Source: a virus
Virus record (IMG/VR): IMGVR_UViG_3300050190_000059
Location: 1-64,000 of that record
DNA length: 64,000 nucleotides
Strand: one strand, 5' to 3'
Position 1 is the stretch's first letter; each line of letters begins with the position of its first letter. Below, in pieces: positions 28,573 through 49,275 of this stretch. The notes below the pieces were generated by a model. The model did no database searches, was not told where the DNA came from, and was given only the letters and a program-made list of their open reading frames with translations. The translations under genes and the position numbers were made by a program.

Positions 28573-29210
28573 TTTCACGCGTACACCACTGCGTCGGGCA
28601 GATAGATGTAGCAGAAGGAAGGAAGGAACCGCCAGCCCCGAGTTGCAGATGCAGAAAATTTATTTCGATTGAGAAGGCGACCGAGTTCGTCAAACTGGGC
28701 GAGGTAAGCTGGGTGGTCATTGGCCGCACCCGTGGCCTCGCGCAAGTGGTCTGCAAACTGTGCGGGGGCGACAAGAGCATCAAAAACTGTGCAGAGTGTC
28801 GCGGCAAAGGCCTCGCGCCAGTGCCCGTTACTTGGGACGAGTACAACAACGATATCGTGCTGGTTAGCCAGTTGCCAGAAGACAAGACGGAGAAGAAACG
28901 CAGTTCGGTTTTGAAAAAGAAGACGCCGCGCGTCGCCACAATCGAGGCACCTCACATCGAGCGCGCCTACGTGTACGGCAAAAAAGAGGCGCAACAGCGC
29001 ATCGAGCAGTACGGCGAGATGGTCGCGTGGGGGCTGCAAGAACTAGGCGCGGAAATAAACATTAGTTGTAAGTATTGTGGTCTTTTGCGCGGATGTCGAT
29101 GCGTGGGCGACCGTAAGACCGGGAAAGTTATTATGGAGGGTAGGCCGGAACCAAAGAACGACGCGAAGAAAGGTTTGGGCCGCGACCATGACTGGGGTCG
29201 CTGCGTATAA
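28569..29210 (+). CDS. Cys-rich protein with a DnaJ-type CxxCxGxG zinc-finger-like segment
   Basis: CKLCGGDKSIKNCAECRGKG. Additional CKYCGLLRGCRC. Confidence 0.6.
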   Translation: MISRVHHCVGQIDVAEGRKEPPAPSCRCRKFISIEKATEFVKLGEVSWVVIGRTRGLAQVVCKLCGGDKSIKNCAECRGKGLAPVPVTWDEYNNDIVLVSQLPEDKTEKKRSSVLKKKTPRVATIEAPHIERAYVYGKKEAQQRIEQYGEMVAWGLQELGAEINISCKYCGLLRGCRCVGDRKTGKVIMEGRPEPKNDAKKGLGRDHDWGRCV

Positions 29211-29512
29211 TGGGCATAAGCTACATTTCGAGCAGAGATAAAGATCGCTGTATGCGAGCCAACACTCTTGCTCGTAAAAGAAATCAGGCTTACGTTTCGC
29301 AAGACAAAGAGCGCGGATGTCAGCAGTGTGGTGAAACGCACCCTAGGTGCCTCGACTATCATCACAGAGATAGGGCTACCAAACATTTAGCGATAAGTGT
29401 TTTAAAGAGCCGCTCTTATTCTTTGGAGATTCTCAAAGCAGAAATAGAAAAGTGCGATTTGCTTTGCGCTAACTGCCACAGGAAATTGGAAGATTCATTG
29501 GAGAAACCATGA
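29210..29512 (+). CDS. HNH endonuclease
   Basis: CQQCGE...LDYHHRD...LLCANCHRKLE. Confidence 0.8.
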   Translation: MGISYISSRDKDRCMRANTLARKRNQAYVSQDKERGCQQCGETHPRCLDYHHRDRATKHLAISVLKSRSYSLEILKAEIEKCDLLCANCHRKLEDSLEKP

Positions 29513-30072
29513 CCGACGAACTCACACCAGACCCGTTCGTAACCACGCCGGAGTTACAAGCTGCAATTGACGCGGCCTTGGCTGCGGTTCTAAACCGTCC
29601 GTACGCTGCGCGCAACCCGCAGTTAGGCAAGATGATTAACTGTCAAGTGTGCCGATCACGCCACCGCAAGAACGAAAAGCAGTGCGAGCAGGTCTTCACA
29701 CACCGGGTAGATCACGACAACTACGAGTTACTACGAGAGAACGACAATGGTGAACTCGTACCGGACTACCGCACCTGTACGAAGGAAGGCGAGCGTCCGA
29801 CGATGAAACAGCTTATGGGCGCGTCGGCATTCAACAAGAAACGTTTCCACCCGCACCCATCGAAAATCAAACTGCTACTTATCGAGTATACCCGCGAGGC
29901 CTTTACTGCTCTCGGTTTCCCTCTCGATAACAAGGCAGCGGATTTTGAAAAGAACCTGCAACGCGCCCGTGTCGTGGCCGCCCGTCGTATCCGCAAGGAA
30001 CGCCGACTGCGTACCCGTGCGACGAACCGTCAAAGAGACAAGGCAAAACGCATCAACAAGGGGCTGCTATGA
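29509..30072 (+). CDS. hypothetical protein with basic C-terminus
   Basis: 187-aa ORF, ATGA coupling. Confidence 0.65.
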   Translation: MTDELTPDPFVTTPELQAAIDAALAAVLNRPYAARNPQLGKMINCQVCRSRHRKNEKQCEQVFTHRVDHDNYELLRENDNGELVPDYRTCTKEGERPTMKQLMGASAFNKKRFHPHPSKIKLLLIEYTREAFTALGFPLDNKAADFEKNLQRARVVAARRIRKERRLRTRATNRQRDKAKRINKGLL

Positions 30073-30326
30073 GCAGAGAGTTGAGAAAGACCGTGGAGAA
30101 AATCATTCTGACCGACTGGCCGAAGATGAAGTACATGGAGGCCAACTATCGCGGCATGGAGACGGATGATTTGTTAAAATACCGTAGCCGTATATATCAT
30201 TTGATGATGATGGACGACAGTGAAACCGCAGGCGGCTGGGTTGTGAACATCAACATCGAGGGTATCGTCGATGAACTCAAATTTCGAAAAGCCCTTCCAA
30301 AGAATGATGGATGGGGCGATGCTTGA
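30069..30326 (+). CDS. hypothetical protein
   Basis: 85-aa ORF, ATGA coupling. Confidence 0.6.
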   Translation: MSRELRKTVEKIILTDWPKMKYMEANYRGMETDDLLKYRSRIYHLMMMDDSETAGGWVVNINIEGIVDELKFRKALPKNDGWGDA

Positions 30327-31086
30327 AAATATCACCATCCTAATCCCGACCTTCCACCGACGCGGTTACCTCTGCGACTGTTTGATGGGAATCGCCGAGA
30401 ATCTACCCGAGTGTTCGGTGTTGGTTGCCTCGGATGACGGCCTTCCTCCAGAGCGCGCTTGGCTCACAGATGGCATCCTCAGAGATAGCTGGTTCACGAT
30501 GTCTTATGATGTAGGCTTGACCGCGAAGCGGAATCTATTAGTACAAGGGACACTGACGCGGTACGCGCTGATGGGGTCGGACGACTTCGACTTCTCCACA
30601 CCAGAGGCGCGCGAAGGTATCATTAGGATGGCTCAACTATTCAAGGCTTCAGATTTAACTTTTATGGAGGTTGACGTCGCGTGCGGACGGGTCAACAACC
30701 GACCGTACGAGGGTCATCTTGAGTACGTTCCCGGCCAATATATTAAAGAGCACCGTATCGGGCCACGGCAGGCCGCGAGGGTAACCGGAATCGACATCGC
30801 GGCAAATTACTTTCTCGCCCGCGCTGACTTCCTTAGAAAGTTCCCTTGGGACGAGACCATCCGGCCTATCGGTGGGGAGCACGCGGACTGGTTCTTAGAC
30901 TTGAAGGCGGCGGGCAGAAAGGTCGTGTTCGTCCCCGGCGTGAACATCAACGAACTTCCGAAGGACCGCAGTAAAGAGCATCCCGACTACCGCACGTTCC
31001 GCAATCGATGCTGGGAAGGCCACGCGATCTTCATGAAAAAGCGCGGCATCAAGAAGTATTACGGATTCGATGAAGACGTACAATAG
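30319..31086 (+). CDS. glycosyltransferase, GT-A fold (GT2-like)
   Basis: ITILIPTFHRRGYL...VLVASDDG...LMGSDDFDF. The start is uncertain (30304-30319). Confidence 0.65.
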   Translation: MLENITILIPTFHRRGYLCDCLMGIAENLPECSVLVASDDGLPPERAWLTDGILRDSWFTMSYDVGLTAKRNLLVQGTLTRYALMGSDDFDFSTPEAREGIIRMAQLFKASDLTFMEVDVACGRVNNRPYEGHLEYVPGQYIKEHRIGPRQAARVTGIDIAANYFLARADFLRKFPWDETIRPIGGEHADWFLDLKAAGRKVVFVPGVNINELPKDRSKEHPDYRTFRNRCWEGHAIFMKKRGIKKYYGFDEDVQ

Positions 31087-31096
31087 GAGAACTAAA

Positions 31097-31291
31097 ATGG
31101 CAAAACAAAAGGTAGCAAAGGCAATTCAAATTGGTTCGGTGGTTCAGTTCAAGAGTGGCGGGCCGCTCATGACCGTAGTCAAAGGCGTATCAGGGGGCGA
31201 CAGCACCATTCTAACGGTGTTGTGGATAGCAGAAGAACGCTATCTTCAAAAGGCCGAAGTCGCCATCCAAGCGTTCAAACTGATACGCTAA
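31097..31291 (+). CDS. YodC/DUF2158-like small protein
   Basis: VVQFKSGGPLMTVV...LWIAEERYLQKAEVAIQAFKL. TAGGAGAA RBS. Confidence 0.6.
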   Translation: MAKQKVAKAIQIGSVVQFKSGGPLMTVVKGVSGGDSTILTVLWIAEERYLQKAEVAIQAFKLIR

Positions 31292-32244
31292 TGGACCTGA
31301 TAATCTACCACGGAAATTGTCCCGACGGCTGGGCCGCAGCGTACATCTGCAAGCTGAAGTACCCGGAGGCCGAGTTCATGCCCCTCAATCATGGTCTGAC
31401 AGACGAGGCATTGGAAGACCTATTTGCGATGGTCGACAATAAACACGTCATCATGGTCGACTATTCGCTGCGCACTCGCGAGTTGAACGACAAGTTAGCC
31501 GCACTCGCGAACACGTTCCGTATTCTCGACCATCACAAGACAGCGCAGGCCGTGTTGGAGGGCGCACCGTACGCGATCTTCGATATGAAACGCTCAGGCG
31601 CTGGCATGGCGTGGGATTATCTGTTCGGCAAGGACGCGTATTTGGAGGGCGACGGATACTTAGAACGACCATTCTGGATTTCGTACACCGAGGACCAAGA
31701 TTTGTGGAACTGGGTGTTGCCGCACTCCCAAGAGATCAACGCCTATTTGATGGTGCAACCGCGCACCGTTGAAGTGTGGGATAAAATAATTGAGATGAGT
31801 GCCGCTGATGCTGAGAAAAGAGGTAAAGGCGTCCGCTCGTACATCGAATACTACACCCGCTCCGTCCTCGCAGAGGTACAAGAGGGCGTTCTATTTTTCC
31901 AGACGGGCACAATCGAGTCAGAGGACGAGACCATCACCCTTCCCGTTTATACCAGTTACCGCACCGGGGTCCTCAACATCCCGTACGTGGGAGTCAGCGA
32001 GGCTGGCGCGGCATTAGTCGAGAGTGGATTCGACATCGGCCTCGCGTGGTTCGAGCGCGGCGACGGTCTGATTCAGTTCTCTTTGCGTAGCAAAAAGGGC
32101 GGCCCAATCGACGTCGCCGCAATCGCAAAGACCTACGGCGGCGGCGGCCACAACAACGCGGCAGGTTTTCAAGTTAGTCTCAGAGAGGGTCGCGACATCG
32201 TCGACGGCATCATAGGGAGACTCAGTTATGAAAAATCGAATTGA
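31291..32244 (+). CDS. DHH/DHHA1-family phosphoesterase
   Basis: IIYHGNCPDGWAAAY, RILDHHKT (DHH), GGGGHNNAAGF (DHHA1 GGGH). Confidence 0.8.
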   Translation: MDLIIYHGNCPDGWAAAYICKLKYPEAEFMPLNHGLTDEALEDLFAMVDNKHVIMVDYSLRTRELNDKLAALANTFRILDHHKTAQAVLEGAPYAIFDMKRSGAGMAWDYLFGKDAYLEGDGYLERPFWISYTEDQDLWNWVLPHSQEINAYLMVQPRTVEVWDKIIEMSAADAEKRGKGVRSYIEYYTRSVLAEVQEGVLFFQTGTIESEDETITLPVYTSYRTGVLNIPYVGVSEAGAALVESGFDIGLAWFERGDGLIQFSLRSKKGGPIDVAAIAKTYGGGGHNNAAGFQVSLREGRDIVDGIIGRLSYEKSN

Positions 32245-32572
32245 CATCATAGAGTTCCCTGTCTTCTCCGACTTCATCGTCCACGTTGAAGTGACAAAGA
32301 ACTTACAAAAGACTACGATGAAGTATCCAAGTGTCGCGTGTTCGGCGGACGAGATCGATAACAACACAGACGCGGTCACGTTGTACGCTAACGGAAAGGT
32401 CTGTTTCATATTCTTACAACCCGATGCTTCTGCTGGAACAGTGGCCCACGAGGCCTTTCACGCCGTCGAGAATATGATGAGCTATTTCGATATGGACTTG
32501 GGCGGGGAGACTTCGGCGTATCACATCGGGTATATAGTGAACCGTGCATTCAAATTGTTGAGGAAACGATGA
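32228..32572 (+). CDS. small HExxH metallopeptidase-like protein
   Basis: GTVAHEAFHAVENMM. 114 aa. Confidence 0.5.
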   Translation: MKNRIDIIEFPVFSDFIVHVEVTKNLQKTTMKYPSVACSADEIDNNTDAVTLYANGKVCFIFLQPDASAGTVAHEAFHAVENMMSYFDMDLGGETSAYHIGYIVNRAFKLLRKR

Positions 32573-33267
32573 CACTACTTATCGCAGTTAAGAGTTGCCG
32601 TGCAGACCTAGATCGCGGGTGTCATGACGTGATTCGCTCGACGTGGGGGCTAGCCTTGCGCGGTAAGGCGATGGTGCGTTTCTTCGTCGGCCACACGGCC
32701 AGCGACTACTTCATGGCCCACCCAAAGGCCGACGCGAGAACATTCTCAAACGACGAGGTTGTGGTGGACGCACCCGACGATTATCAGTCACTGCCACATA
32801 AGACTCGCGCCATCTGCGGCTGGGCGATCACTAAGAACGTCAGCCACGTGTTCCTCTGCGACAACGACACTTATGTGAACGCGGCGAAGCTACTCTCTTG
32901 CGGGTACGAGGGCTACGACTACGTAGGCAAGATCGACAAGCCGTTGGGAGAAACCTTCCCTTACGACGCGGTTGACCGCAATGGAATAATGGAGCACATC
33001 CCCTTCTGTTACCCGTGGGCCAGCGGCGGCTTCGGCTACTTCCTGTCTCGCAACGCGGCCTTCGAGGTGGCAGACAGCTATCCGAAGACGTGGGCAGAGG
33101 ATTTGTGGGTTGGTCAAGTTCTGGGACGAGAGATCGCAAAGAAAGAAATGTCGGCACTCAGTCTCCCGGCACGTAGTTACTCTGAGCACTTTCCGTCCGC
33201 ACAATTCAAACAGGGATACGACCCGAAACTGAAGTGGATGGAAAAGATGCACGCGGAGAACAAGTGA
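32569..33267 (+). CDS. GT31/Fringe-like glycosyltransferase (beta-1,3-Gal/GlcNAc-transferase family)
   Basis: LLIAVKSCRADLDRGCHDVIRSTWG, DDYQSLPHKTRAICGWA, FLCDNDTYVN (DxD), ASGGFGYFLSRNAA, EDLWVGQVLG. Confidence 0.65.
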   Translation: MTLLIAVKSCRADLDRGCHDVIRSTWGLALRGKAMVRFFVGHTASDYFMAHPKADARTFSNDEVVVDAPDDYQSLPHKTRAICGWAITKNVSHVFLCDNDTYVNAAKLLSCGYEGYDYVGKIDKPLGETFPYDAVDRNGIMEHIPFCYPWASGGFGYFLSRNAAFEVADSYPKTWAEDLWVGQVLGREIAKKEMSALSLPARSYSEHFPSAQFKQGYDPKLKWMEKMHAENK

Positions 33268-33956
33268 AGACCGCGCTCTTAGTCATTGCAACTGGGGAGA
33301 AGTACCACAAGTATATTCAGCCGCTGCTCCAATCGGCCAGAACCTATTTCGTCCCCCACACCCCGGTCGTCTTCTCCGACGCCAACAATATCGGCTTGGG
33401 AGAACGTCCTTACATGGTGATCGACCACGAGGCGTGGCCCGGTCCCACGCTACACCGATATCATACGTTTTTGAAGGCGAAAGAATATCTGGGATGTTTC
33501 GACCAGCTATTTTATATCGACGTCGACATGCTGTTCGTCGCACCAGTTGGGGACGAGATATTCTCCCACGGTCTTACTGCCGTGCTCCATCCCGGCTACG
33601 TCGGCATGAACAGCACTTCCGGTACTCCCGAAAGACGGAGAGAGTCCGCCGCGTTCACCCCACATAATACGGCCTATTATTGCGGAGGCTTTCAAGGTGG
33701 GGATACAGAAACATATTTGAGGGCGATGGAGTATATGGCTGCTGGAATTAAACTTGATGAGACGCGAGGAATAACTGCGGTGTGGCACGATGAGTCTCAC
33801 TGGAACGCCTTCTTGTCGACTATCGAAAGACCGACAAAGGTTTTTGGACCAGATTATTGTTACCCCGATGTACCCGGCGACTACTACCGCAATAAATGGC
33901 GCGCGGCGGGGCTGACGGTCACCCCAAAGATTTTGGCACTCACGAAAGAATCATGA
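33264..33956 (+). CDS. GT6-family glycosyltransferase (ABO / alpha-1,3-Gal(NAc)-transferase-like)
   Basis: LLVIATGEKYHKY...VVFSD, YIDVDMLFVAPVGDEI (DVD), LHPGYVG, ERRRESAAF, YYCGGFQGG, AVWHDESHWNAF. These are collinear with the vertebrate GTA/GTB motifs VDVDMEF, HPGFYG, YYLGGFFGG and AVWHDESHLNKY. Confidence 0.85.
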   Translation: MKTALLVIATGEKYHKYIQPLLQSARTYFVPHTPVVFSDANNIGLGERPYMVIDHEAWPGPTLHRYHTFLKAKEYLGCFDQLFYIDVDMLFVAPVGDEIFSHGLTAVLHPGYVGMNSTSGTPERRRESAAFTPHNTAYYCGGFQGGDTETYLRAMEYMAAGIKLDETRGITAVWHDESHWNAFLSTIERPTKVFGPDYCYPDVPGDYYRNKWRAAGLTVTPKILALTKES

Positions 33957-34681
33957 TTACCATTAAACTGATGGGAGGATTAGGAAATCAACTTTTCCAG
34001 CGGGCCTTCGGGCTGGCGTTAGAGGGCCGAGGTTACACAGTTCGATACGACTTGTTCGCGTTGAAAGAGGGCACTCACCGCGAGTACTCGCTTGGATACT
34101 TCAGCGACCTGCCAATCAGCCGTCAAGAGGGGCCGATTGTCAAGGAGGAGGGCGCGGGTTTTAACGCGGCCTATCTCAATCCGCCCGACACGTGCACCAT
34201 GACCGGGTATTGGCAATCGGAGAAATACTTCCTCCCGGTTGCGTACGAGGTTAACGAGGCATTCAGGTTTCGAGGGCCGCGTCCGCTACTGCCCGACTGT
34301 ATAGCGGTTCACGTGCGCCGGGGGGACTATGTCGATTTGCAACAGTTTCACGGCATGCCTGACATTAAGTATTATACAGAGGGCGTTGAGCACATCCGTC
34401 GCCGCGTGGGGGAACCTCTTAAGGTTTTAGTGCTATCGGATGACCGCCAGTGGTGTAGGGAAAATCTCCCCTCTGATTTCACAGTCGTAGAGGGTGCGAA
34501 CAAGTACGAGGACATGAAGATCATAGCTGCGTGCGGGTTCGCGGTGATCGCCAACAGCAGCTTCAGTTGGTGGGGCGCGTGGCTGGGAAGACAGCGGATA
34601 ATAGTTGCACCGAAGCAGTGGTTCACAGAGCCGTCAATGGATTCTAAGGATATCGTACCGGAGCGATGGAGAACACTATGA
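33953..34681 (+). CDS. GT11-family alpha-1,2-fucosyltransferase
   Basis: LMGGLGNQLFQRAFGLAL, HVRRGDYVD, VLSDDRQWC, NSSFSWWGAWL (the four GT11 motifs). Confidence 0.85.
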   Translation: MITIKLMGGLGNQLFQRAFGLALEGRGYTVRYDLFALKEGTHREYSLGYFSDLPISRQEGPIVKEEGAGFNAAYLNPPDTCTMTGYWQSEKYFLPVAYEVNEAFRFRGPRPLLPDCIAVHVRRGDYVDLQQFHGMPDIKYYTEGVEHIRRRVGEPLKVLVLSDDRQWCRENLPSDFTVVEGANKYEDMKIIAACGFAVIANSSFSWWGAWLGRQRIIVAPKQWFTEPSMDSKDIVPERWRTL

Positions 34682-35091
34682 GAGTATACTTAGGCGGCAC
34701 CTTTGACATCATTCATCCCGGCCACATCAAGCTGTTCCGATGGGCGAAATTTACCTTCGGTGAGGTGATAGTCGCGCTCAACACCGACGAGTTTATCCTG
34801 CGGTATAAGGGCAAGGCCCCGGCGATGACCTTCGAGCAGCGTGCGGACGTTCTCAGAGAGCTTCGTTCGGTGGACCGCGTTGTCACGAACACGGGCGACG
34901 AGGACTCAAGGCCATCGATTATCGAAGCCCGCCCGCAAGTCATCGCGGTAGGCTCCGACTGGACGAGAGATCGCATTTTGAAGCAACTGAATATCACTGA
35001 GGGATTCTTACTGCAATACAGCATCAACCTTGTGATCTACGGCAACTCTGACCCGATACACTCATCAGACATCAAGAAGAGAATGGCATGA
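34678..35091 (+). CDS. cytidylyltransferase-fold nucleotidyltransferase (TagD-like glycerol-3-phosphate cytidylyltransferase)
   Basis: GGTFDIIHPGHIKLF, NTDEF, RELRSVDRV, VGSDW, SSDIKKR. Collinear with TagD. Confidence 0.75.
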   Translation: MRVYLGGTFDIIHPGHIKLFRWAKFTFGEVIVALNTDEFILRYKGKAPAMTFEQRADVLRELRSVDRVVTNTGDEDSRPSIIEARPQVIAVGSDWTRDRILKQLNITEGFLLQYSINLVIYGNSDPIHSSDIKKRMA

Positions 35092-35726
35092 TAATCGAGG
35101 CGTTCATTCCGGATTGGGCAAGCCCCCGGGCGCACGCGGGGGCGTTGGCCGAGGCACTTGAGCCTTTTTGCAAGACGACTATCTTGAGTTCCTTCGACGT
35201 GCCTTTTTCAGTTCAGTGGGAGGAAGCAGTTTCTAAGTTCACTGGCGACATATTTTTGTGGGCGATGGCGGACATCGGATTTCGGGACCCTGTTGAAGAC
35301 ATCTTTGTTTCAATGTACCGCGCCTACTCGCGCGGCGACGTCGCTATGTACGCCCCCAACTTGGACTACACCGCGATGGTGTATGATACGAGCAAGTTAC
35401 GGCAGGTCGATCTTGGGCTGTTCGAAGTCGCGGGAACGGATTTAATCTTTGTTAGCCTGCACCGGGACCTGTTGGAATTGCTGCCCCCGCTGGGCTGCAA
35501 TACCCATGCGTGGGCCTATGATTATCTGATGACGCACATCGCGCACAGCAAACTCGGCAAGAAGGTCGTACGCGACTACAATTTCATGATCGCTCACCCG
35601 TACGGGAAAGCGTATAGTGAACCAGAAGCTATAGCGCAGCAAAACGAGTGGATACACCATCTGTCTTTTGTACACCAGATGGGCATCCGAGAACAGCAAG
35701 CGATTCAAGAAAGAACCCATGCTTAA
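35088..35726 (+). CDS. hypothetical protein in the glycosylation island
   Basis: 212-aa ORF, ATGA coupling. No diagnostic motif. Confidence 0.65.
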   Translation: MIIEAFIPDWASPRAHAGALAEALEPFCKTTILSSFDVPFSVQWEEAVSKFTGDIFLWAMADIGFRDPVEDIFVSMYRAYSRGDVAMYAPNLDYTAMVYDTSKLRQVDLGLFEVAGTDLIFVSLHRDLLELLPPLGCNTHAWAYDYLMTHIAHSKLGKKVVRDYNFMIAHPYGKAYSEPEAIAQQNEWIHHLSFVHQMGIREQQAIQERTHA

Positions 35727-36501
35727 GTTATTCACTTTCGTGAGCACGAACCCCGCGCTGCTCGAACTTCAGTACAACAGCTTTCTGCGACACATGAGGG
35801 AGCCGTTCGAGTTCGTCGTTATAAACAACGGCGCGCTCACGGACCACGACAAGTACATTGAGATTGCCAAAGAGTGCATGCGCCTCCACCTTCGGTTCAT
35901 AAGTGTGATGTACGACCCTATCCTCGCAGACCGACTGCGCAATTTAGGCGGCCACCGAGTGCTCGTCGGTAATATGTATGCTAACATGACTGCGGCCTGC
36001 GGATACGGGGTCGCGTGGGCGTGGGAGAACGTGATCTCGAAACAGCGCGGCACCGTCTGTCTGATGCACCACGACATGCTGATGGTGCGCGACGCCGTTC
36101 TGTCAGATCAGATGGAGGATGCTGACTTGGTATTTGTCCCGCAATCCCGTGAGGGCGTGCCCGTGCACTTGTGGGAGGGGTTCGTTCTCGCCAACATCGA
36201 CCGCATACCTGTGATGGACGCAGCGTGTTGGTGGTACGGTGAGATCGGTGATGTCAATGTGGACGTCGGAGGGATGTCACACTACTGGTTTCAAGCGCAC
36301 CCGCACCTGCGTTGGAAGGGAATTCCTACAGTCTCAGTCGAGGATACGCCCGACGTGAGTTTTCACCCAGCGGTATTTGAGCATCTGTATCTCGATGGCG
36401 AACCAACAATTCTACACTACCGCGCGGCATCCGACTGGATGAAGCTGGGGCCAGAGTACCACGAAAAGAAGATGCTGTGGCTAAGGGAGCAACTGCGATG
36501 A
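35719..36501 (+). CDS. hypothetical protein, possibly a GT-A-like glycosyltransferase
   Basis: FTFVSTNPALLELQYNSFLRHM..FEFVVINNG resembles a GT-A N-terminus (weak). Confidence 0.6.
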   Translation: MLKLFTFVSTNPALLELQYNSFLRHMREPFEFVVINNGALTDHDKYIEIAKECMRLHLRFISVMYDPILADRLRNLGGHRVLVGNMYANMTAACGYGVAWAWENVISKQRGTVCLMHHDMLMVRDAVLSDQMEDADLVFVPQSREGVPVHLWEGFVLANIDRIPVMDAACWWYGEIGDVNVDVGGMSHYWFQAHPHLRWKGIPTVSVEDTPDVSFHPAVFEHLYLDGEPTILHYRAASDWMKLGPEYHEKKMLWLREQLR

Positions 36502-37358
36502 TCGCAGGAAAAGTAAACATAGTTATCCCGCTCTACAATCAAGAGCAGTACATCACTCAGTGTGTCAATTCAGCCCTCGCTCAAACGTATCCGAATTTCG
36601 ACGTGACCATCGTTAATGATGGTTCAACCGACTATTCGAGACAGGTGTTACAGGAAGCGATTGACGCTTATTTGAACGTAGACAGCGTCAAGAGGGATGA
36701 ATTTTATAAGATAGTAGAAGAGAAAGGTCTAGAGACCAAGCGAACCAGCGATGGCATGTTTCCGGACCACGAAGAAAAATGGGCCTTGTGGGCGAGTTAT
36801 TTTCCGAACGGTGAGCGCGTCGCACCTCTCGTGATCGACCAACCGAATAAAGGTCTTTCCGAGTCCCGGAATATCGGGATTAGAAGCGGGGACGGGGAGT
36901 TTATTTTACCGCTTGACAGCGACGACTGGATTGATGTAGACTATCTAAGTAGGACCGTGCCCAAGATGGCGGACCCGAAGGTGGGCATCGTCTCCACCGA
37001 TATGCAGTACGAGGGGCTGTTGCGCAACCGCATCGCACCGCGCGGTCTAACGTTAGCGCATCAGATGAACTGCAATGACCTTCCAATCTGCTCGCTGATT
37101 AGACGAGAGGCGTGGGAGCAAACCCCCGGGTACGAGACCATCTTCGTTGACGTGGCAGGCAGCACGAAGGTTCTCGGTTATGAGGACTGGAATATGTGGA
37201 TTGATATTTTGAAGCGCGGCTGGACCGTGGCGGTCGTCAACGAGCCGCTGTTCCACTACCGCGTGAAACCAGTTTCGATGATAACGCAGGCGAAATCGAA
37301 GCACAACGGACTGGTGCGCGTGATTCATCTTCTGCATCCGGATTTGTGGAGACAATAG
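36498..37358 (+). CDS. GT2-family glycosyltransferase
   Basis: VNIVIPLYNQEQYITQCVNSALAQTYPNFDVTIVNDGSTD, LPLDSDDW (DxD). Confidence 0.85.
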   Translation: MIAGKVNIVIPLYNQEQYITQCVNSALAQTYPNFDVTIVNDGSTDYSRQVLQEAIDAYLNVDSVKRDEFYKIVEEKGLETKRTSDGMFPDHEEKWALWASYFPNGERVAPLVIDQPNKGLSESRNIGIRSGDGEFILPLDSDDWIDVDYLSRTVPKMADPKVGIVSTDMQYEGLLRNRIAPRGLTLAHQMNCNDLPICSLIRREAWEQTPGYETIFVDVAGSTKVLGYEDWNMWIDILKRGWTVAVVNEPLFHYRVKPVSMITQAKSKHNGLVRVIHLLHPDLWRQ

Positions 37359-38011
37359 TGAGGATAACTTTTATCGGCGACGTGCACGGGAAGACCGACC
37401 AGTACCAGAAAAAGCTGCGCCAGAAATTCGCCGGGAAGCGCACCTTCCAGATCGGGGACATGGGCGTTGGCTTCAAAGGCACCCCGGGTCTTCATAAAGA
37501 CATCATGACCAGCGGCGACCACAAGTGGATTCGCGGGAACCACGATGACCCGGCGAAGTGCCGACAGCAGTACGGATACGCGGGCGAGTACGGCTACCTG
37601 CCGGGGGACAAGCTGTTCTTCCTCGGTGGCGCGTTCTCCATCGACCGCGCGTGGCGCACCCCCGGCGTATCGTGGTGGGGCGACGAGGAACTCAGTTGGC
37701 CGGAACTCGCGAAGGCCGTCGACTTGTACATCGCGACGAAGCCTGAGATCGTGGCAACGCACGACTGCCCCAGCCGCATCTCAGAATACATGCTGACCGT
37801 GGTGCTCCCCAGCTTCCGACCGGAGAAACTGGACTGCATGTCCAGCCGCACCGCAGCCGCGTTGCAGCAGATGCTCGACATTCATCGCCCGAAAGAGTGG
37901 GTCTTCGGTCACTACCATATTGATACCTCTTTCGAGTGGCAGGGCGTAAAATTCACTTGCATCGCTGAACTTTCGGAGTATACTATAACTGACGAGGTGG
38001 TGACGCTGTGA
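37346..38011 (+). CDS. calcineurin-like metallophosphoesterase
   Basis: FIGDVHG, QIGDMG, IRGNHDD, ATHDCP, FGHYH. GTG start (37346 or 37358). Confidence 0.8.
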   Translation: METIVRITFIGDVHGKTDQYQKKLRQKFAGKRTFQIGDMGVGFKGTPGLHKDIMTSGDHKWIRGNHDDPAKCRQQYGYAGEYGYLPGDKLFFLGGAFSIDRAWRTPGVSWWGDEELSWPELAKAVDLYIATKPEIVATHDCPSRISEYMLTVVLPSFRPEKLDCMSSRTAAALQQMLDIHRPKEWVFGHYHIDTSFEWQGVKFTCIAELSEYTITDEVVTL

Positions 38012-38187
38012 AATACGAGTACATAAGATTAGAACTTAACATGGGCGACCTGACCGCGCTCAACGGTTTGTCGTCCGTGGGTTTCCGTGTCGTGGCCGTT
38101 TTGAGCGAACCACGGTATGTCGCCGTGGACGACTTCGCGGGTATGGTGCCGATAAATTACGCCTTGCTCGAAAGGCCTATACCATGA
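38008..38187 (+). CDS. DUF4177-like small protein (59 aa)
   Basis: VKYEYIRLELNMG...LNGLSSVGFRVVAV...LLERP. GTGA and ATGA coupling at both ends. Replaces the antisense ORF 38029..38238. Confidence 0.5.
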   Translation: MKYEYIRLELNMGDLTALNGLSSVGFRVVAVLSEPRYVAVDDFAGMVPINYALLERPIP

Positions 38188-38858
38188 ACGTTTATCTGAT
38201 AGCCGACACGCATCTGAAACACGAGGCCATGAAGACATACTGTCTACGCCCGCCCAACTTCACAGAACTCATACATAAGAACGTGATGAACACAGTGAAG
38301 GCAGAAGATACGCTGATACATTTAGGCGACGTGGGCATAGGTAAACACGCGGATTGGACGTGGATGGTGCGCGCATGGCCGGGTCGTAAAATACTGATAC
38401 GTGGTAATCACGATAGGGCACACTCTTGTGGATGGTGGGCAGAAACAGGCGGCTTTGATTTCGCGTGCGACTCGATGGTCTTCCGCAACGTGCTACTCAC
38501 CCACGAGCCAGCGAACGCGATCATAAAATCTGACGGCCATCGTCCGTACGGCGCGCTGGAAGAGGGTCTGCCGCAAGACTGCGAACTGAACGTGCACGGG
38601 CACCTTCACAACATCTGGGACGGATTCGCCAGCGAAGGACGTTTGGAGCGCGACAAGGAACTGCTCGGAATAGACTTCACCAAACGACTAAAGCACTCGT
38701 GGCAGCGGCTGTTCGCCGTGGAGTACACGAACTACATGCCAGTTGAATTCAACAAGTTTATATCGCAGCCGGACAAGTATCAGGCGAGAGGACCTAAACC
38801 GAAACATTTTTCGGAACTCCGCGATCAACTGATACTTCCAGCAACAGAGGAGAAATAA
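38184..38858 (+). CDS. calcineurin-like metallophosphoesterase
   Basis: LIADTHL, HLGDVG, IRGNHDR, LTHEP, VHGHLHN. Confidence 0.8.
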   Translation: MNVYLIADTHLKHEAMKTYCLRPPNFTELIHKNVMNTVKAEDTLIHLGDVGIGKHADWTWMVRAWPGRKILIRGNHDRAHSCGWWAETGGFDFACDSMVFRNVLLTHEPANAIIKSDGHRPYGALEEGLPQDCELNVHGHLHNIWDGFASEGRLERDKELLGIDFTKRLKHSWQRLFAVEYTNYMPVEFNKFISQPDKYQARGPKPKHFSELRDQLILPATEEK

Positions 38859-39385
38859 TGGCAGACTTTAATCAGGCAGTTCAGAAGACGTTAATACACG
38901 AGGGCGGGTATCAGAACCGTCCGCTGGACAAAGGCAACTGGTACAACGGAATCAACTACGGCACGAAGTACGGCATCACTGCCACCGACGTAGCGCATTA
39001 CTTTCCTACGCTCATTTCGGACTTGAACTGCGTTCGTAATCTGACGACGGCACAGGCCACGATAGTCTACAAGGGCGGGTACTGGAAAGACCTTTACTCC
39101 CAGATCAACGCGCAACTGGTCGCGGAGAAGCTGTTCGACATGGGCGTGCTGATGGGCGTGGGGACTGCGGTGAAACAATTGCAGATCACTTTGAAGAACG
39201 CGATTGCGATTGTGCCGGACGGCGTGTTCGGCCCCCAGACCTTGGCCGACGTTAACCAGCAGGACGGTACTCAACTATTAGCTAATTACCGCACCACGCT
39301 CATTCAACACGCGATCAACATCGTGAACAACAACCCGAACGACGCCGAAGACATCCAAGGCTGGATAACCCGCATCAACAGTTAA
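38858..39385 (+). CDS. endolysin: GH108 N-acetylmuramidase + PG_binding_3 domain
   Basis: TLIHEGGYQNRPLDKGNWYNGINYGTKYGIT (GH108 EGGY motif). C-terminal LQITLKNAIAIVPDGVFGPQTLADVN (peptidoglycan-binding). Confidence 0.8.
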   Translation: MADFNQAVQKTLIHEGGYQNRPLDKGNWYNGINYGTKYGITATDVAHYFPTLISDLNCVRNLTTAQATIVYKGGYWKDLYSQINAQLVAEKLFDMGVLMGVGTAVKQLQITLKNAIAIVPDGVFGPQTLADVNQQDGTQLLANYRTTLIQHAINIVNNNPNDAEDIQGWITRINS

Positions 39386-39393
39386 AGGCTCCC

Positions 39394-39950: not shown

Positions 39951-40129
39951 ACATCCGCGAGTGCAGACAGTGCCACCGGATGGTCGACTTCGACGAACCG
40001 TGGTGCGCCCACGAGACGATGGAAGAGAGCGCGTGGATAGACATTCGCGAACGAGCCGCCGCCTTCGGTAGAGACGCAGCCGTGATAGACGACATCGTAG
40101 AGCAAGCGGCGAAAGACCTAATCAAGTGA
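39947..40129 (+). CDS. hypothetical protein
   Basis: 60-aa ORF, ATGA coupling. Confidence 0.55.
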   Translation: MNIRECRQCHRMVDFDEPWCAHETMEESAWIDIRERAAAFGRDAAVIDDIVEQAAKDLIK

Positions 40130-40659: not shown

Positions 40660-40676
40660 GTTTTTGGAGGATACAC

Positions 40677-48225: not shown

Positions 48226-48498
48226 ATGAGAGAACACTGGAAGGGACAAGCTGATGGTTTTCACGACGGAGAACCCGTCTGGGACAACGACGGGCACTAC
48301 ACGTGGCCGAGAATCAGGTACGTCGAACCGCTGGAATTCACGGCGGAACTTATCGTTAAAATCTTCGACAAGGATGGGAACTGGATTGGGACTCACGAGC
48401 GGCGGGTTATGACAAAAGAAGAATTTATGAAGATGTATCCGGACTTTAGACAAAGTGAGAGCGAAAAGTATCAGGACGAGTTGGAGCCCCTACCGTAA
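48226..48498 (+). CDS. hypothetical protein
   Basis: 90-aa ORF. TAGGAGAA RBS. The 3' end overlaps a convergent gene by 9 nt. Confidence 0.65.
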   Translation: MREHWKGQADGFHDGEPVWDNDGHYTWPRIRYVEPLEFTAELIVKIFDKDGNWIGTHERRVMTKEEFMKMYPDFRQSESEKYQDELEPLP

Positions 48499-49275
48499 GG
48501 GCGCGTACGGTTCGAAATCCTTGGCGTACTGATCTCGGTTCGAAGTCGTAGCCATAATCTCCCTCGCGCGCTGTATCCTCGTTCCTAAATCCAATCCGTA
48601 GTTCTTGTAAATATCCAAACTGTCGTAAGCCCGGAAACCGATGTGCGCGCAAACCGGAGCCTTCGGGTACACGGGCAGCCAGTTATTTTGGCGCATCGTA
48701 TTCCGAACGAGACCATCATCAAGTTGGGTGATTTCGTGCCATGCCCCGAACGTACGGTCTAGATATCCACGCATGTCTTGAAAGTAGGCGTCGCAAATAT
48801 GCGGCACCAATGCGTCAAGTAGGGGGCGTTTCAAACACGCGCCCGGATTTGTGTAAAGGTGTCGGAACTTCCACCGACCGTCGTGGTGGTATCTACCGCA
48901 ACTGGCAACCGCAGTTTGGCTGCGATGCCAAGAAAAATAATAGGGATAGCAGAGTACATCTTCCTCCAATAAATAAACAGCCGATGCCCCTGTTTTATAT
49001 CCGGATTTAATGGCGTGCAAAATATTCCAACTGCCAGAGGGGGCTTTGACGTGAGGTCGGGCGTGGAAAATTTGCGCTCTAGGAAGGTACGCATCTCGAA
49101 CCCAGCCCACTTCGGCCACCCGCTGCTCCGAAGATGTATCCAGAAAAATTCGAACGTCATCAGGAGCATCAACAATTTGTCCTAGTTTTTCAAGTGTCAA
49201 CGCCAGCAGTTCTGGGCGAGCAAAAGTTGGTATAACAACGACCTCGTTCAGTGACGTTTTCCGTGTAGTGGACAT
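48490..49275 (-). CDS. GT-A fold glycosyltransferase-like protein
   Basis: VVVIPTFARPELLALTLEKL...IFLDTSS...YLLEEDV. AAGGAA RBS. Confidence 0.6.
   Translation of the reverse strand: MSTTRKTSLNEVVVIPTFARPELLALTLEKLGQIVDAPDDVRIFLDTSSEQRVAEVGWVRDAYLPRAQIFHARPHVKAPSGSWNILHAIKSGYKTGASAVYLLEEDVLCYPYYFSWHRSQTAVASCGRYHHDGRWKFRHLYTNPGACLKRPLLDALVPHICDAYFQDMRGYLDRTFGAWHEITQLDDGLVRNTMRQNNWLPVYPKAPVCAHIGFRAYDSLDIYKNYGLDLGTRIQRAREIMATTSNRDQYAKDFEPYAPLR

What the first reader, a model, noticed from the sequence alone, without database searches (positions are those of the whole stretch)
30319..37358. 7-kb phage-borne glycosylation island with no membrane, flippase or priming components
Eleven consecutive coupled genes make up the island:
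- GT2-like (30319)
- YodC-like
- DHH phosphoesterase
- HExxH mini-protein
- GT31-like
- GT6
- GT11
- TagD-like cytidylyltransferase
- two unknowns, one with a GT-A-like N-terminus
- GT2 (36498)

Another GT-A gene sits at 48490..49275 (-). None of the products has an obvious TM segment. I saw no Wzx/Wzy, GtrA/B, undecaprenyl-phosphate priming transferase or sugar-nucleotide synthesis gene other than the cytidylyltransferase.

Inference:
- The acceptor is unclear. It could be the host LPS/LOS core or a capsule intermediate on the cytoplasmic face (lysogenic conversion would fit the integrase), virion proteins, or phage DNA.
- Five to seven transferases in one phage locus would build a multi-sugar epitope rather than add a single decoration.
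Basis: partly seen in the sequence, partly recalled or inferred. Interest (0 to 1): 0.7.

Follow-up and report, generated by a model that had tools for sequence, protein, structure and literature searches.

The report
Phage island of soluble glycosyltransferases
An uncultured ~100-kb phage carries seven membrane-free glycosyltransferase genes in a row, three of them the enzyme types that make human ABO/H blood-group sugars, but what the resulting fucosylated glycan is attached to remains unknown.

Summary
Window 30319-37358 is one run of eleven overlapping + strand genes in a phage genome.

Profile and fold searches confirm or sharpen every assignment:
- g1 is GT12-like (B4GALNT1 profile E=8e-21).
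- g5 is GT31, g6 is GT6 (DVD motif, A-transferase-like donor residues), g7 is GT11 and g11 is GT2.
- g8 is a TagD-like nucleotidyltransferase.
- Both "unknowns" (g9, g10) are GT-A folds of undescribed families.

That makes seven transferases, plus an eighth GT-A gene at 48490-49275(-). None has a TM segment. The window encodes no multi-pass membrane protein, and no Wzx/Wzy, Gtr or priming-transferase Pfam family was on record.

New findings:
- GT31+GT11+GT6 is the histo-blood-group A/B triad.
- The cassette sits at a fixed hot spot in a lineage of ~100-kb phages (ten members examined).
- Its content varies, from one GT31 gene to cassettes that also carry deoxy-sugar synthesis genes.
- DUF2158 and DHH are more likely backbone genes than part of the pathway, and the HExxH gene has no assigned role.
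- No enzyme that would make a glycosylatable DNA base was found.

Best guess (0.4): the glycan is built in the cytoplasm on a host-primed lipid-linked acceptor, and host machinery exports it. Virion or protein glycosylation (0.3) is not excluded. This is a new variant of a known kind, of moderate interest.

The parts
30319..31086 (+). g1: GT-A glycosyltransferase, GT12-like (B4GALNT1-like), DXD motif = SDDFDF
   Evidence: phmmer against PDB hits B4GALNT1 at E=4.7e-5. A family profile of 28 sequences hits it at E=7.7e-21 over 190 residues. Many homologues carry PF00535, and two are fused to a Galactosyl_T domain. The metagenome gene call starts at 30271.
31070..31291 (+). g2: DUF2158 (YodC-like) small protein; likely backbone rather than pathway member
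   Evidence: Pfam PF09926, E=3.4e-7. Recurs in relatives L004, L005/L049, L048 and L106.
31291..32244 (+). g3: DHH/DHHA1 phosphoesterase; backbone gene
   Evidence: DHHA1 E=1e-5. phrog_4771 E=5e-65. Retained in L107, which lacks nearly all GTs.
32228..32572 (+). g4: 114-aa protein with HEAFH motif; function unknown; variable among relatives
   Evidence: Sequence. phrog_1365, unknown function, E=4e-9. The DHH-to-GT31 gap leaves no room for it in L048, L106 or L107.
32569..33267 (+). g5: GT31 beta-1,3-glycosyltransferase-like; the only GT found in all ten lineage members examined
   Evidence: PF01762 E=4.2e-11, 43 bits against a cut-off of 23. Beta3GT-type motifs IRSTWG, DDYQSLPHKT, CDNDTYV, SGGFGYFLS and EDLWVG read directly from the translation. 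Orthologue matrix.
33234..33956 (+). g6: GT6 retaining alpha-1,3-Gal/GalNAc transferase; minimal-domain DXD clade; A-transferase-like donor residues
   Evidence: PF03414 E=5e-27. PDB hits BoGT6a at 7.5e-26 and human GTA at 4e-23. The alignment shows DVD = D211-D213, LHPGYVG (H233, G235), YYCGGF (L266 replaced by C, G268 kept) and WHDESH (E303).
33953..34681 (+). g7: GT11 alpha-1,2-fucosyltransferase-like
   Evidence: PF01531 E=1e-25. phrog_2644 E=3e-44. GGLGNQLFQ and HVRRGDY motifs in the translation. The metagenome gene call starts at 33896.
34666..35091 (+). g8: small HxGH nucleotidyltransferase (TagD / RfaE-domain-II-like); substrate unassigned; always immediately upstream of g9
   Evidence: PF01467 E=7e-19. 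rfaE_dom_II 4e-19 and TagD 4.5e-17, both far below equivalog cut-offs. Best PDB hits are TagD 1coz at 1e-13 and ECT at 7e-13. The g8-g9 adjacency is seen in the window, L004, L025 and L110.
35088..35726 (+). g9: minimal GT-A glycosyltransferase of an undescribed family
   Evidence: No Pfam, NCBIfam or PHROG hit. AF2 pLDDT 95. Foldseek against PDB: STIV A197 at E=1.9e-7 (TM 0.54/0.59), then AvpGT, WrtF, B4GALNT1, GalNAc-Ts and TarP.
35719..36501 (+). g10: GT-A glycosyltransferase of an undescribed family, GT8/GT24/GT6-like (retaining type)
   Evidence: No family hit. 29 homologues share invariant D119 in a DSD/HHD motif. AF2 pLDDT 93. Foldseek: LARGE1, UGGT, BoGT6a, glycogenin and LgtC at E~1e-5. 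Co-occurs with GT6/GT11 in phages and in cellular MAGs.
36498..37358 (+). g11: GT2 inverting glycosyltransferase with an insertion after the nucleotide-binding half
   Evidence: PF00535 E=7e-27 in two stretches. NCBIfam TuaG-, EpsD/E-, PglI- and WcaA-like hits, all below equivalog cut-offs.
48490..49275 (-). Eighth GT-A-type glycosyltransferase; last gene of the late (structural/tail) operon
   Evidence: Own Pfam hit only E=0.028. 216 homologues found. Of 30 scanned, 13 hit Glyco_tranf_2_3, 8 Glycos_transf_2 and 3 GNT-I. E104-x-D106 is conserved. Position downstream of the tail-like genes. Conserved in L046 at 77%.
37346..38858 (+). Downstream flank: two calcineurin-like metallophosphoesterases and a 59-aa ORF; backbone, not cassette
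   Evidence: PF00149 and PF12850. Retained in L107 next to the single GT31 gene.
38858..39385 (+). GH108 endolysin with PG_binding_3; marks the downstream edge of the hot spot
   Evidence: PF05838 E=2.7e-14 and PF09374 E=1.8e-7. Syntenic in all relatives.

Best explanation
**Shown**
- The cassette encodes seven soluble, cytoplasmic glycosyltransferases: GT12-like g1, GT31 g5, GT6 g6, GT11 g7, two undescribed GT-A families g9 and g10, and GT2 g11.
- It also encodes one small nucleotidyltransferase, g8.
- All are translationally coupled inside the replication-to-lysis operon of an uncultured ~100-kb phage.

**Inferred from the characterised activities of the families**
- GT31 lays down a beta-1,3-linked galactose-type residue.
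- GT11 adds alpha-1,2-fucose to it, giving an H-like determinant.
- GT6 caps the same galactose with alpha-1,3-GalNAc. Its DXD motif and its Gly at the positions of human GTA residues 235 and 268 look A-type.
- The product would be a branched, histo-blood-group-A-like terminus.
- g1, g11, g9 and g10 would build the underlying or neighbouring residues.
- g8 with g9 would add one extra substituent from a donor that g8 activates.
- Except for that donor, the nucleotide sugars (UDP-Gal, UDP-GalNAc, GDP-Fuc) would come from the host.

**Inferred, least certain**
- The acceptor is a host-primed lipid-linked glycan at the inner face of the cytoplasmic membrane. That means Und-PP-HexNAc made by a WecA-type enzyme, or lipid A-core.
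- The phage supplies only the soluble elongating enzymes.
- The host's flippase and ligase would display the new oligosaccharide on the cell surface.
- This would change or mask receptors during infection, or in a lysogen.
For: **Enzyme identities**
-.
- The GT6 belongs to the minimal-domain DXD clade. The one assayed member of that clade, PaGT6, transfers GalNAc only to fucosylated (H-type) acceptors (PMC3516806).
- In E. coli O86 a beta-1,3-GalT, a GT11 and a GT6 act in this order on an Und-PP-linked unit (PMC4202792).

**Linkage of the genes**
- GT6 and GT11 lie adjacent or close together in eight other viral contigs recovered with the GT6 query.
- g10 homologues sit beside GT6 or GT11 in phage loci and in cellular MAG loci.
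- g1-type and GT31 domains occur fused in two metagenome proteins.

**Support for a glycan-building role**
- Relatives carry deoxy-sugar genes inside the cassette: FnlA-like, RmlD-like, GMD-type dehydratases and a sugar C-methyltransferase.

**Support for a pre-existing host acceptor**
- All characterised GT31, GT11 and GT6 enzymes act on sugar acceptors. This rests on family knowledge, not on a test here.
- One lineage member keeps only the GT31 gene. That gene must then act on something the phage does not make.
- No priming enzyme is encoded, and soluble GTs are the norm for O-unit assembly.
- NCBIfam neighbours of g11 are all lipid-linked polysaccharide GTs.
- A tyrosine recombinase is present.
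Against: - No direct evidence for any acceptor. The host is unknown.
- The cassette is embedded in a lytic-cycle operon, with no promoter or terminator of its own above chance. This is unlike classical seroconversion morons.
- Known seroconverting phages use one to three genes, including membrane proteins. Seven GTs is a large investment for receptor masking.
- Display would depend on a tolerant host Wzx and WaaL.
- No integrated prophage copy was found in representative genomes of 185,579 species. The scan used a g10-family pattern, and the only close hit was a ~100-kb phage-sized contig.
- An eighth GT ends the structural operon. One relative has a collagen-like GXT-repeat protein inside the cassette. 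Both hint at protein acceptors.
- Donor and linkage assignments rest on family membership and a few residues, not on assays.
Confidence: 0.4

Rival explanations
1. Autonomous protein (virion) glycosylation. One GT-A enzyme (g9, g11 or the late-operon GT at 48490-49275) puts the first sugar on Ser/Thr of a phage structural or secreted protein in the cytoplasm. GT31, GT11 and GT6 then extend it into a mucin-type, blood-group-A-like O-glycan. The process would be independent of any lipid carrier, as in chloroviruses, mimiviruses and mycobacteriophages.
For: - All enzymes are soluble and no lipid-carrier machinery is present.
- The cassette is co-expressed with lytic genes, with no sign of moron-type autonomy.
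- A GT-A gene is the last gene of the structural/tail operon.
- The best structural match of g9 is the STIV viral GT A197. g9 also resembles polypeptide GalNAc-transferases.
- GT31 includes core-1 synthase, which acts on GalNAc-Ser/Thr (PMC4202792).
- Relative L025 has a collagen-like GXT-repeat protein inside the cassette.
- Relatives carry rare-sugar genes. From general knowledge, giant-virus fibril-glycosylation clusters do too.
- Virion glycosylation by phage GTs has a precedent in mycobacteriophages (cited in PMC12619734).
Against: - No candidate acceptor protein was identified in this phage.
- The L025 collagen-like protein has a signal peptide, so it is not an obvious virion part.
- L107 keeps only a GT31 gene, which would lack a sugar acceptor on an unglycosylated protein.
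- The characterised bacterial relatives of GT6 and GT11 make LPS.
- Fold matches for g9 and g10 have modest TM-scores (0.4-0.6) and do not indicate the acceptor type.
Confidence: 0.3
2. DNA hypermodification. The GTs attach an oligosaccharide to a hydroxylated or hydroxymethylated pyrimidine in phage DNA, protecting it from restriction and CRISPR.
For: - The cassette lies among replication and nuclease genes, and a ParB-like protein lies upstream.
- Phage GT-A enzymes resembling TarP, followed by GT8-like second GTs, build mono- to trisaccharides on 5hmC. Such clusters often neighbour ParB, helicase and polymerase genes (bioRxiv 10.1101/2023.12.21.572611).
- TarP is among the fold matches of g9, and GT8 enzymes are among those of g10.
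- There are weak dNMP-kinase-like and 5'-deoxynucleotidase-like hits at 13350-14593.
Against: - Every known route needs a ThyA homologue or a C5-methyltransferase plus a 5mYOX/TET enzyme.
- None is on record or found for genes from about window 3,350 to the window end, in the ~9 kb beyond it, or in 10 kb upstream of TerL in a close relative.
- The capsid-proximal block was screened with PHROGs only.
- GT6, GT11 and GT31 have never been shown to act on DNA-linked sugars.
- Seven GTs exceed any known DNA glycan.
- Relatives carry Mom or DNA methyltransferases instead.
Confidence: 0.07
3. A cytoplasmic or other host target. The enzymes would glycosylate host proteins before export (for example flagellin, pilin or an autotransporter-type receptor), or a small molecule, or would make a free oligosaccharide. 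The purpose would be takeover or exclusion.
For: - All enzymes are soluble and the expression context is the lytic cycle.
- Fold neighbours of g10 include glycogenin and UGGT, which act on proteins.
- From general knowledge, cytoplasmic glycosylation before Sec export is known for AIDA-I/TibA and HMW1.
Against: - No specific evidence supports it.
- The GT31-GT11-GT6 triad and the cellular homologue clusters point to surface-type glycans.
- This hypothesis was not tested here.
Confidence: 0.13

Closest known systems
E. coli O86 (and O127/O128) O-antigen blood-group pathway: beta-1,3-GalT, then GT11 fucosyltransferase (WbwK/WbiQ/WbsJ), then GT6 WbnI; also Bacteroides ovatus BoGT6a
   Same: The same GT11 and GT6 families are paired. 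The order of action is the same: beta-1,3-Gal, alpha-1,2-Fuc, then alpha-1,3-Gal/GalNAc. The enzymes are soluble and work at the cytoplasmic face (PMC4202792; PMC3516806).
   Different: - The bacterial clusters include Wzx, Wzy and sugar-nucleotide genes. Here there are none.
- The bacterial beta-1,3-GalTs are GT2. Here it is a GT31, as in animals.
- Bacterial GT6 enzymes have NXN and a C-terminal membrane-binding domain. This one has DXD and a minimal domain.
- This cassette sits in a phage lytic operon.
GT6 genes of cyanomyoviruses (P-SSM2, S-CAM9 and others) and the multi-GT 'cell-wall' gene sets of cyanophages such as S-SCSM2R
   Same: - The same GT6 clade: minimal domain, DXD, 30-38% identity (PMC3516806).
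- Phages with many soluble GTs, a TagD-like gene and epimerases, whose target is unknown (PMC12801897).
   Different: - A different phage lineage: ~100 kb, with no tail-tube or tape-measure hit among the structural genes screened. Its closest cultured TerL is only 27% identical.
- The GTs here form one coupled cassette at a fixed hot spot, together with GT12-like and GT31 members and two undescribed GT-A families.
Seroconverting prophage systems (GtrABC of P22/Sf phages) and prophage TarP of S. aureus
   Same: A phage-encoded change of a host surface glycopolymer. TarP is a soluble GT-A acting on a host polymer at the cytoplasmic face, and is among the fold matches of g9 (described).
   Different: - Gtr systems need membrane proteins GtrA, GtrB and GtrC, and add one sugar in the periplasm. 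No such proteins are present here.
- Those systems have one to three genes and are expressed from the prophage. Here there are seven GTs in a lytic operon.
Virus-autonomous virion glycosylation (mycobacteriophage capsid/tail glycosylation; chlorovirus and mimivirus GT clusters; STIV A197)
   Same: Soluble virus-encoded GT-A enzymes, and in relatives rare-sugar synthesis genes next to the GTs. A197 is the best fold match of g9.
   Different: No glycosylated virion protein is known or predicted here. Most GTs sit in the replication-to-lysis operon, not beside the capsid genes.
Phage DNA glycan hypermodification gene clusters (C5-MT/5mYOX- or ThyA-dependent)
   Same: Multi-GT clusters with TarP-like and GT8-like GT-A enzymes next to replication and ParB genes.
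   Different: The base-activating enzyme that defines these clusters was not found. The GT6/GT11/GT31 content is foreign to them.

Membership tests
CAZy GT6 (g6, 33234-33956) | Match to the family model above the curated threshold | tested here: met
   PF03414, 94.9 bits against a cut-off of 25. NCBIfam Gltr_6 gives E=3e-39, but its 134.8 bits fall below the subfamily cut-off of 250.
CAZy GT6 (g6) | Catalytic and substrate residues: DXD (or NXN), His233/Gly-Ser235 region, 266/268 donor-selecting pair, Glu303 | tested here: met
   Alignment to human GTA 1lz0 shows DVD, LHPGYVG, YYCGGF and WHDESH. The motifs recur in related phage GT6s.
CAZy GT6 (g6) | Alpha-1,3-Gal/GalNAc transfer to a Fuc-alpha-1,2-Gal acceptor | not testable with these tools
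   Needs an enzyme assay. The only assayed member of this clade, PaGT6, does this (PMC3516806).
CAZy GT11 (g7, 33953-34681) | Family model above threshold and the HxRRxD motif | tested here: met
   PF01531, 91 bits against a cut-off of 23.9. HVRRGDY and GGLGNQLFQ are in the translation.
CAZy GT31 (g5, 32569-33267) | Family model above threshold and the conserved beta3GT motifs including DxD | tested here: met
   PF01762, 43.4 bits against a cut-off of 23. The motifs were read from the translation and compared with beta3GT motifs from memory. There is no PDB sequence hit.
CAZy GT12 (g1, 30319-31086) | Sequence homology to B4GALNT1/2 across the catalytic GT-A domain with DXD | tested here: met
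   Profile A3 against PDB 9h6j gives E=7.7e-21 over 190 residues, with DDF aligned to DDDF. g1 has no hit in any Pfam-A family. Formal CAZy assignment (dbCAN) could not be run.
CAZy GT2 (g11, 36498-37358) | Family model above threshold, DXD | tested here: met
   PF00535, 94.8 bits against a cut-off of 23.3. DSDD is in the translation.
Glycerol-3-phosphate cytidylyltransferase TagD (g8) | HxGH nucleotidyltransferase fold | tested here: met
   PF01467, 68.7 bits against a cut-off of 21. GTFDIIHPGH aligns to TagD 1coz at E=1e-13.
Glycerol-3-phosphate cytidylyltransferase TagD (g8) | Equivalog-level match that would fix the substrate | tested here: not met
   TIGR01518 scores 62 bits against a cut-off of 165. 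rfaE_dom_II scores 69 bits against 181.5. ECT and PEP-mutase-associated enzymes score similarly. The substrate is left open.
GT-A fold glycosyltransferases (g9, g10) | Rossmann-like GT-A fold with an acidic motif after beta-4 | tested here: met
   AF2 pLDDT 95 and 93. Top Foldseek PDB hits are GT-A glycosyltransferases at probability 1.0, with some nucleotidyltransferases among the lower hits for g9. D62 (g9) and D119 (g10) are invariant. No existing Pfam, NCBIfam or PHROG family matches.
Wzx/Wzy-dependent O-antigen or capsule locus | Flippase, polymerase and polyprenyl-phosphate priming transferase (multi-pass membrane proteins) | tested here: not met
   No ORF with eight or more hydrophobic segments anywhere in the window. 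No such Pfam family is on record for called genes from about window 3,350 onward.
Gtr-type seroconversion cluster | GtrA (small 4-TM flippase), GtrB (GT2 with C-terminal TMs), GtrC | tested here: not met
   g11 has only a weak N-terminal phrog_841 match (E=5e-7) and no TM segment. There is no GtrA- or GtrC-like membrane protein.
Phage DNA-glycosylation gene cluster | Enzyme that makes the acceptor base (ThyA homologue, or C5-MT plus 5mYOX/TET) | tested here: not met
   None is on record or found by Pfam for called genes from about window 3,350 to about 9 kb past the window end, or upstream of TerL in a close relative. The capsid-proximal block was screened with PHROGs only. About 10 kb of the genome was not seen.
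Virion glycosylation system (mycobacteriophage type) | GT genes associated with structural genes and glycans on capsid or tail proteins | tested here: inconclusive
   One GT-A gene ends the late operon. The other seven do not. The glycan on virions is not testable here.

The most novel reading that the evidence does not exclude
The cassette is a self-contained, lipid-carrier-independent O-glycosylation pathway of a bacterial virus. A polypeptide-GalNAc-transferase-like GT-A enzyme would start the chain, followed by a core-1-synthase-like GT31, a GT11 fucosyltransferase and a GT6 A-transferase. The pathway would put a mucin-type, blood-group-A-like glycan on phage structural or secreted proteins in the bacterial cytoplasm. 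It would be a prokaryotic counterpart of chlorovirus and mimivirus glycosylation. The virion glycan might serve as a ligand for host lectins or as a shield. The phage DXD-type GT6/GT11/GT31 set would also be a plausible reservoir for the horizontal transfers already proposed between prokaryotes and vertebrates for GT6.
Probability: 0.25. Interest if true: 0.85.

Novelty: new variant of a known kind. Interest (0 to 1): 0.5.

Why it matters
Phage genomes, cyanophages above all, are full of soluble glycosyltransferases whose targets nobody has established.

**A compact and tractable case**
- Seven GTs sit in 7 kb, and three of them predict a defined, antibody- and lectin-detectable product (an H/A-like determinant).
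- The cassette could be expressed as a block in E. coli and the acceptor question answered directly.

**What the comparison adds**
- It defines two GT-A families with no Pfam, NCBIfam or PHROG model. These are g9, always paired with a small nucleotidyltransferase, and g10, which tracks GT6/GT11 in phages, Dependentiae, Chlamydiae and gut bacteria.
- It shows a glycan-diversifying hot spot in an uncultured ~100-kb phage lineage.

**If the glycan ends up on host LPS**
- This would be seroconversion without any membrane component.

**If it ends up on virions**
- This would extend autonomous viral glycosylation to phages of an apparently Gram-negative host. That host type is only inferred from the endolysin.

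**Wider relevance**
- The DXD-type, minimal-domain GT6 next to animal-type GT31 and GT12-like enzymes bears on the debated prokaryote-to-vertebrate transfer of ABO-family genes.

Tried and rejected
1. **Close phage relatives.** Megablast of 30000-38000 against 50,697 phage records found no match. Pseudanabaena phage Pan1, the best hit of the A1-like 'DNA transfer protein', has no GT cassette and is not a close relative. Tunturiibacter phage Tunturi_3 is the closest cultured TerL at 27% identity. It has a similar genome size, but no GT is annotated in the half examined.
2. **Host identification.**
   - There are no tRNAs.
   - A genome-collection scan with the g10 family found only distant cellular homologues (20-24% identity) and one phage-sized contig binned as 'uncultured archaeon'.
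   - The host remains unknown. A Gram-negative host is only suggested by the GH108/PG_binding_3 endolysin.
3. **Own transcription unit.** Sigma-70 and terminator scans over 24000-42000 were not above shuffled expectation. They cannot prove or exclude internal promoters.
4. **Structured RNAs.** The Rfam gathering-threshold scan of the whole window found nothing.
5. **Single-sequence PDB searches** for g9, g10, g5 and the 48490 gene gave nothing useful. A profile search for g10 also failed. Only structure prediction plus Foldseek, or homologue-by-homologue Pfam scanning, resolved them. hhalign of the 48490 protein against the g9 and g10 alignments found no relation.
6. **DHH, DUF2158, HExxH and the metallophosphoesterases as sugar-phosphate processing enzymes of the pathway.** Rejected for DHH and the metallophosphoesterases, which persist where the GTs are lost. 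The question stays open for the HExxH protein.
7. **Fixing the substrate of g8.** TagD, RfaE domain II and ECT score about equally, and all fall far below equivalog cut-offs.
8. **The AT-skew peak at 10-12 kb as a possible Ser/Thr-rich glycoprotein.** It is a ParB-like, K/A/E-rich coiled-coil protein.

Full report
**What is there**

The window matches a 104,988-bp metagenome contig (IMG 3300050133, Ga0500025_000038), and the contig is a phage.
- The + strand of the window runs from small early genes through several functional blocks:
  - an A1-like 'DNA transfer protein' and a ParB-like coiled-coil protein;
  - a primase-helicase and a split PolA;
  - a UvrD helicase, an AAA ATPase and a PDDEXK nuclease;
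  - then the glycosyltransferase run, two metallophosphoesterases, a GH108 endolysin, RtcB and a tyrosine recombinase.
- The minus strand from 63995 down to 48490 holds very large tail-like proteins. TerL and portal lie just beyond the window.
- No cultured phage is close. Megablast finds nothing, and the best cultured TerL is 27% identical.

**Checking the observation**

From 30319 to 37358 eleven ORFs follow one another, and every stop overlaps the next start by 1-34 nt. GC content is the same as in the rest of the window.

Pfam confirms six calls:
- DUF2158 (g2)
- DHH/DHHA1 (g3)
- Galactosyl_T/GT31 (g5, E=4e-11)
- GT6 (g6, 5e-27)
- GT11 (g7, 1e-25)
- CTP_transf_like (g8, 7e-19) and GT2 (g11, 7e-27)

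The genes without a Pfam hit were resolved in other ways.
- **g1.** It hits human B4GALNT1 (GT12) at E=4.7e-5 on its own. As a 28-sequence profile it hits at 7.7e-21.
- **g9 and g10.** These have no hit in Pfam, NCBIfam or PHROGs. Alignments of their homologues gave AlphaFold models with pLDDT 95 and 93.
  - g10 matches retaining GT-A enzymes (LARGE1, UGGT, BoGT6a, glycogenin, LgtC).
  - g9 matches a minimal viral GT-A (STIV A197, E=2e-7), then WrtF, B4GALNT1, polypeptide GalNAc-transferases and TarP.
- **The gene at 48490-49275(-).** It is weak alone (E=0.028). Of 30 homologues scanned, 13 hit Glyco_tranf_2_3, 8 hit Glycos_transf_2 and 3 hit GNT-I. An E-x-D motif is conserved.

The total is therefore seven transferases in the run and an eighth at the end of the late operon.

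Membrane components are absent.
- No island protein has a TM-like segment.
- No ORF in the window looks like a multi-pass membrane protein.
- No Wzx/Wzy, Gtr or priming-transferase family is on record for the called genes from about window 3,350 onward.

**What the enzymes imply**

The GT6 aligns with human A-transferase at four diagnostic sites:
- the metal-binding DVD motif;
- LHPGYVG, covering His233 and Gly235;
- YYCGGF, where Leu266 is Cys and Gly268 is kept;
- WHDESH, covering Glu303.

It is 240 aa long and has no C-terminal membrane-binding domain.
- This places it in the "minimal domain, DXD" clade defined for cyanophage P-SSM2 and Parachlamydia PaGT6.
- PaGT6, the one assayed member, is metal-dependent. 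It transfers GalNAc only to fucosylated H-type acceptors (PMC3516806).

The GT11 has the GGLGNQ and HVRRGDY motifs of alpha-1,2-fucosyltransferases. The GT31 has the beta-1,3-transferase motifs.

GT31, then GT11, then GT6 is the order that makes blood-group A/B determinants. E. coli O86 uses the same GT11 and GT6 families on an Und-PP-linked unit, but its beta-1,3-GalT is a GT2 (PMC4202792). These donor and linkage assignments are inferences from family membership, not assays.

g8 cannot be assigned a substrate. TagD, RfaE domain II and ethanolamine-phosphate cytidylyltransferase score alike, all far below equivalog cut-offs. g8 always sits immediately upstream of g9. This suggests a donor-maker and transferase pair.

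**Relatives**

Ten members of one lineage were compared. They are the window, L004, L049, L048, L050, L025, L024, L106, L107 and L110. Most come from contigs of 64-102 kb. They share the UvrD-AAA-PDDEXK genes upstream of the cassette and the phosphoesterase/GH108 genes downstream, at roughly 42-80% protein identity.

The space in between is a hot spot.
- Most members have g1, GT31, GT6, GT11, GT2 and g10, in varying order.
- Three members other than the window (L004, L025, L110) have g8 and g9.
- L106 has two GT6 genes and no g10.
- L024 and L049 add RmlD-like, FnlA-like and GMD-type enzymes. L049 also adds a sugar C-methyltransferase.
- L025 adds a secreted collagen-like GXT-repeat protein.
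- L107 keeps only a g5-type GT31 gene.
- DHH and the metallophosphoesterases stay in L107, so they are backbone and not pathway genes.

Outside the lineage, GT6 and GT11 lie adjacent or close together in eight other viral contigs. g10 homologues sit beside GT6 or GT11 in MAGs of Dependentiae, Chlamydiae, Gastranaerophilaceae, Muribaculaceae and Pseudomonadota. g1-type and GT31 domains occur fused. The GT genes therefore form a coherent glycan-building module.

**The acceptor**

*DNA.*
- Every known glycosylated base needs a ThyA homologue or a methyltransferase plus a TET-like oxygenase.
- None is on record or found by Pfam from about window 3,350 to about 9 kb past the window end, or in the 10 kb upstream of TerL in a close relative.
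- The capsid-proximal block was screened with PHROGs only.
- Relatives carry Mom or DNA methyltransferases instead.
- I rate DNA at about 0.07.

*Host lipid-linked glycan against phage protein.* The evidence is indirect on both sides.

For a host acceptor:
- GT31, GT11 and GT6 enzymes are only known to act on sugars.
- A relative with the GT31 gene alone must use an acceptor that the phage does not make.
- No priming enzyme is encoded.
- Soluble GTs are normal in O-unit assembly.
- WecA, Wzx and WaaL could in principle prime, flip and ligate a foreign unit without Wzy. This rests on general knowledge.

Against it, and for a protein acceptor:
- The cassette is coupled into the lytic replication-to-lysis operon, with no promoter or terminator signal above chance.
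- No integrated copy was seen.
- A GT gene ends the structural operon.
- g9 resembles a viral GT and the polypeptide GalNAc-transferases.
- GT31 includes core-1 synthase.
- One relative carries a collagen-like protein in the cassette.

I put the host-glycolipid route at 0.4, protein or virion glycosylation at 0.3, and other cytoplasmic targets at about 0.13.

**Comparison with known systems and novelty**

- Phage GT6 genes and multi-GT phage genomes are known.
- So are seroconversion, virion glycosylation and DNA glycosylation by phage GTs.
- This cassette fails the defining tests of Wzx/Wzy loci, of Gtr clusters and of DNA-hypermodification clusters. The test for virion glycosylation systems was inconclusive.
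- It is best described as a new variant of phage glycan-synthesis islands.
- It has four distinctive features: a complete blood-group-type triad of animal-like families (GT12-like, GT31, GT11, DXD-type GT6), two undescribed GT-A families, no membrane or priming parts, and a fixed hot spot in an uncultured lineage.
- Interest is moderate (0.5). The product is predictable and testable by heterologous expression, but the host and the acceptor are unknown.

Noticed in passing
window 19671-22425: DNA polymerase A is split into two ORFs (19671-20915 and 21331-22425). They match consecutive parts of the same PHROG profile. The 140-aa ORF between them (20912-21334) has Cys pairs and an HHDH...N motif, like a free-standing HNH/EndoVII homing endonuclease. 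No Rfam intron was found.
   Followed up: partly
window 10313-12271: A 652-aa protein with a ParB-like N-terminus, about 350 aa of K/A/E-rich coiled coil and a C-terminal 'KKHPDHGG' J-domain-like HPD motif. It has no Pfam or PHROG hit. It explains the AT-skew peak at 10-12 kb.
   Followed up: partly
window 6970-7425, 17069-17686, 41159-41623, 49248-49712: Several Endonuclease VII / HNH genes are scattered through the genome, and more occur in relatives. This suggests heavy homing-endonuclease load.
   Followed up: no
window 13350-14593: Two adjacent ORFs have weak hits to dNMP kinase (DNMK, E=0.0026) and YfbR-like 5'-deoxynucleotidase (E=0.0017). Both are below threshold. This may be nucleotide-pool handling.
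   Followed up: no
L025:10863-11762: A relative's GT cassette contains a gene for a signal-peptide-bearing PEGA-domain protein with collagen-like GXT repeats (GPTGATGSTGATG...). It is a conceivable O-glycosylation substrate. The window has no counterpart.
   Followed up: partly
L049:7762-9538 and 13708-15863; L024:8199-13372: Relatives carry FnlA-like (Polysacc_synt_2), RmlD-like and GMD-type dehydratase genes inside the cassette, and L049 also a sugar C-methyltransferase gene. They would make their own 6-deoxy or branched sugars. The window phage has none of these genes.
   Followed up: partly
proteins P0028/P0029; loci L032-L042, L109: g10-family homologues in Dependentiae, Babeliae and Chlamydiae MAGs lie next to GT6 or GT11 genes. 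P0028 and P0029 have an N-terminal hydrophobic anchor, as Golgi-type GTs do. This may bear on the evolution of GT6 in amoeba-associated bacteria.
   Followed up: no
window 46867-47769 versus L046: The tyrosine recombinase is 100% identical at protein level in the close relative. GT6 is only 86% identical and the late-operon GT 77%. This points to mosaic exchange within the lineage.
   Followed up: no
window 50213-59353 (-): Tail-like proteins with unusual domains: an 1857-aa DUF7178 protein, an 863-aa protein with weak GH43, PASTA and CarboxypepD_reg hits, and a 324-aa Laminin_G_3 protein. A 1437-aa Ice_binding-domain protein lies just beyond the window end. Possible glycan-binding or glycan-degrading receptor-recognition parts.
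   Followed up: no
proteins P0146, P0160: Metagenome proteins fuse a g1-type GT domain to a Galactosyl_T (GT31) domain. This Rosetta-stone link supports g1 and g5 acting in one pathway.
   Followed up: no
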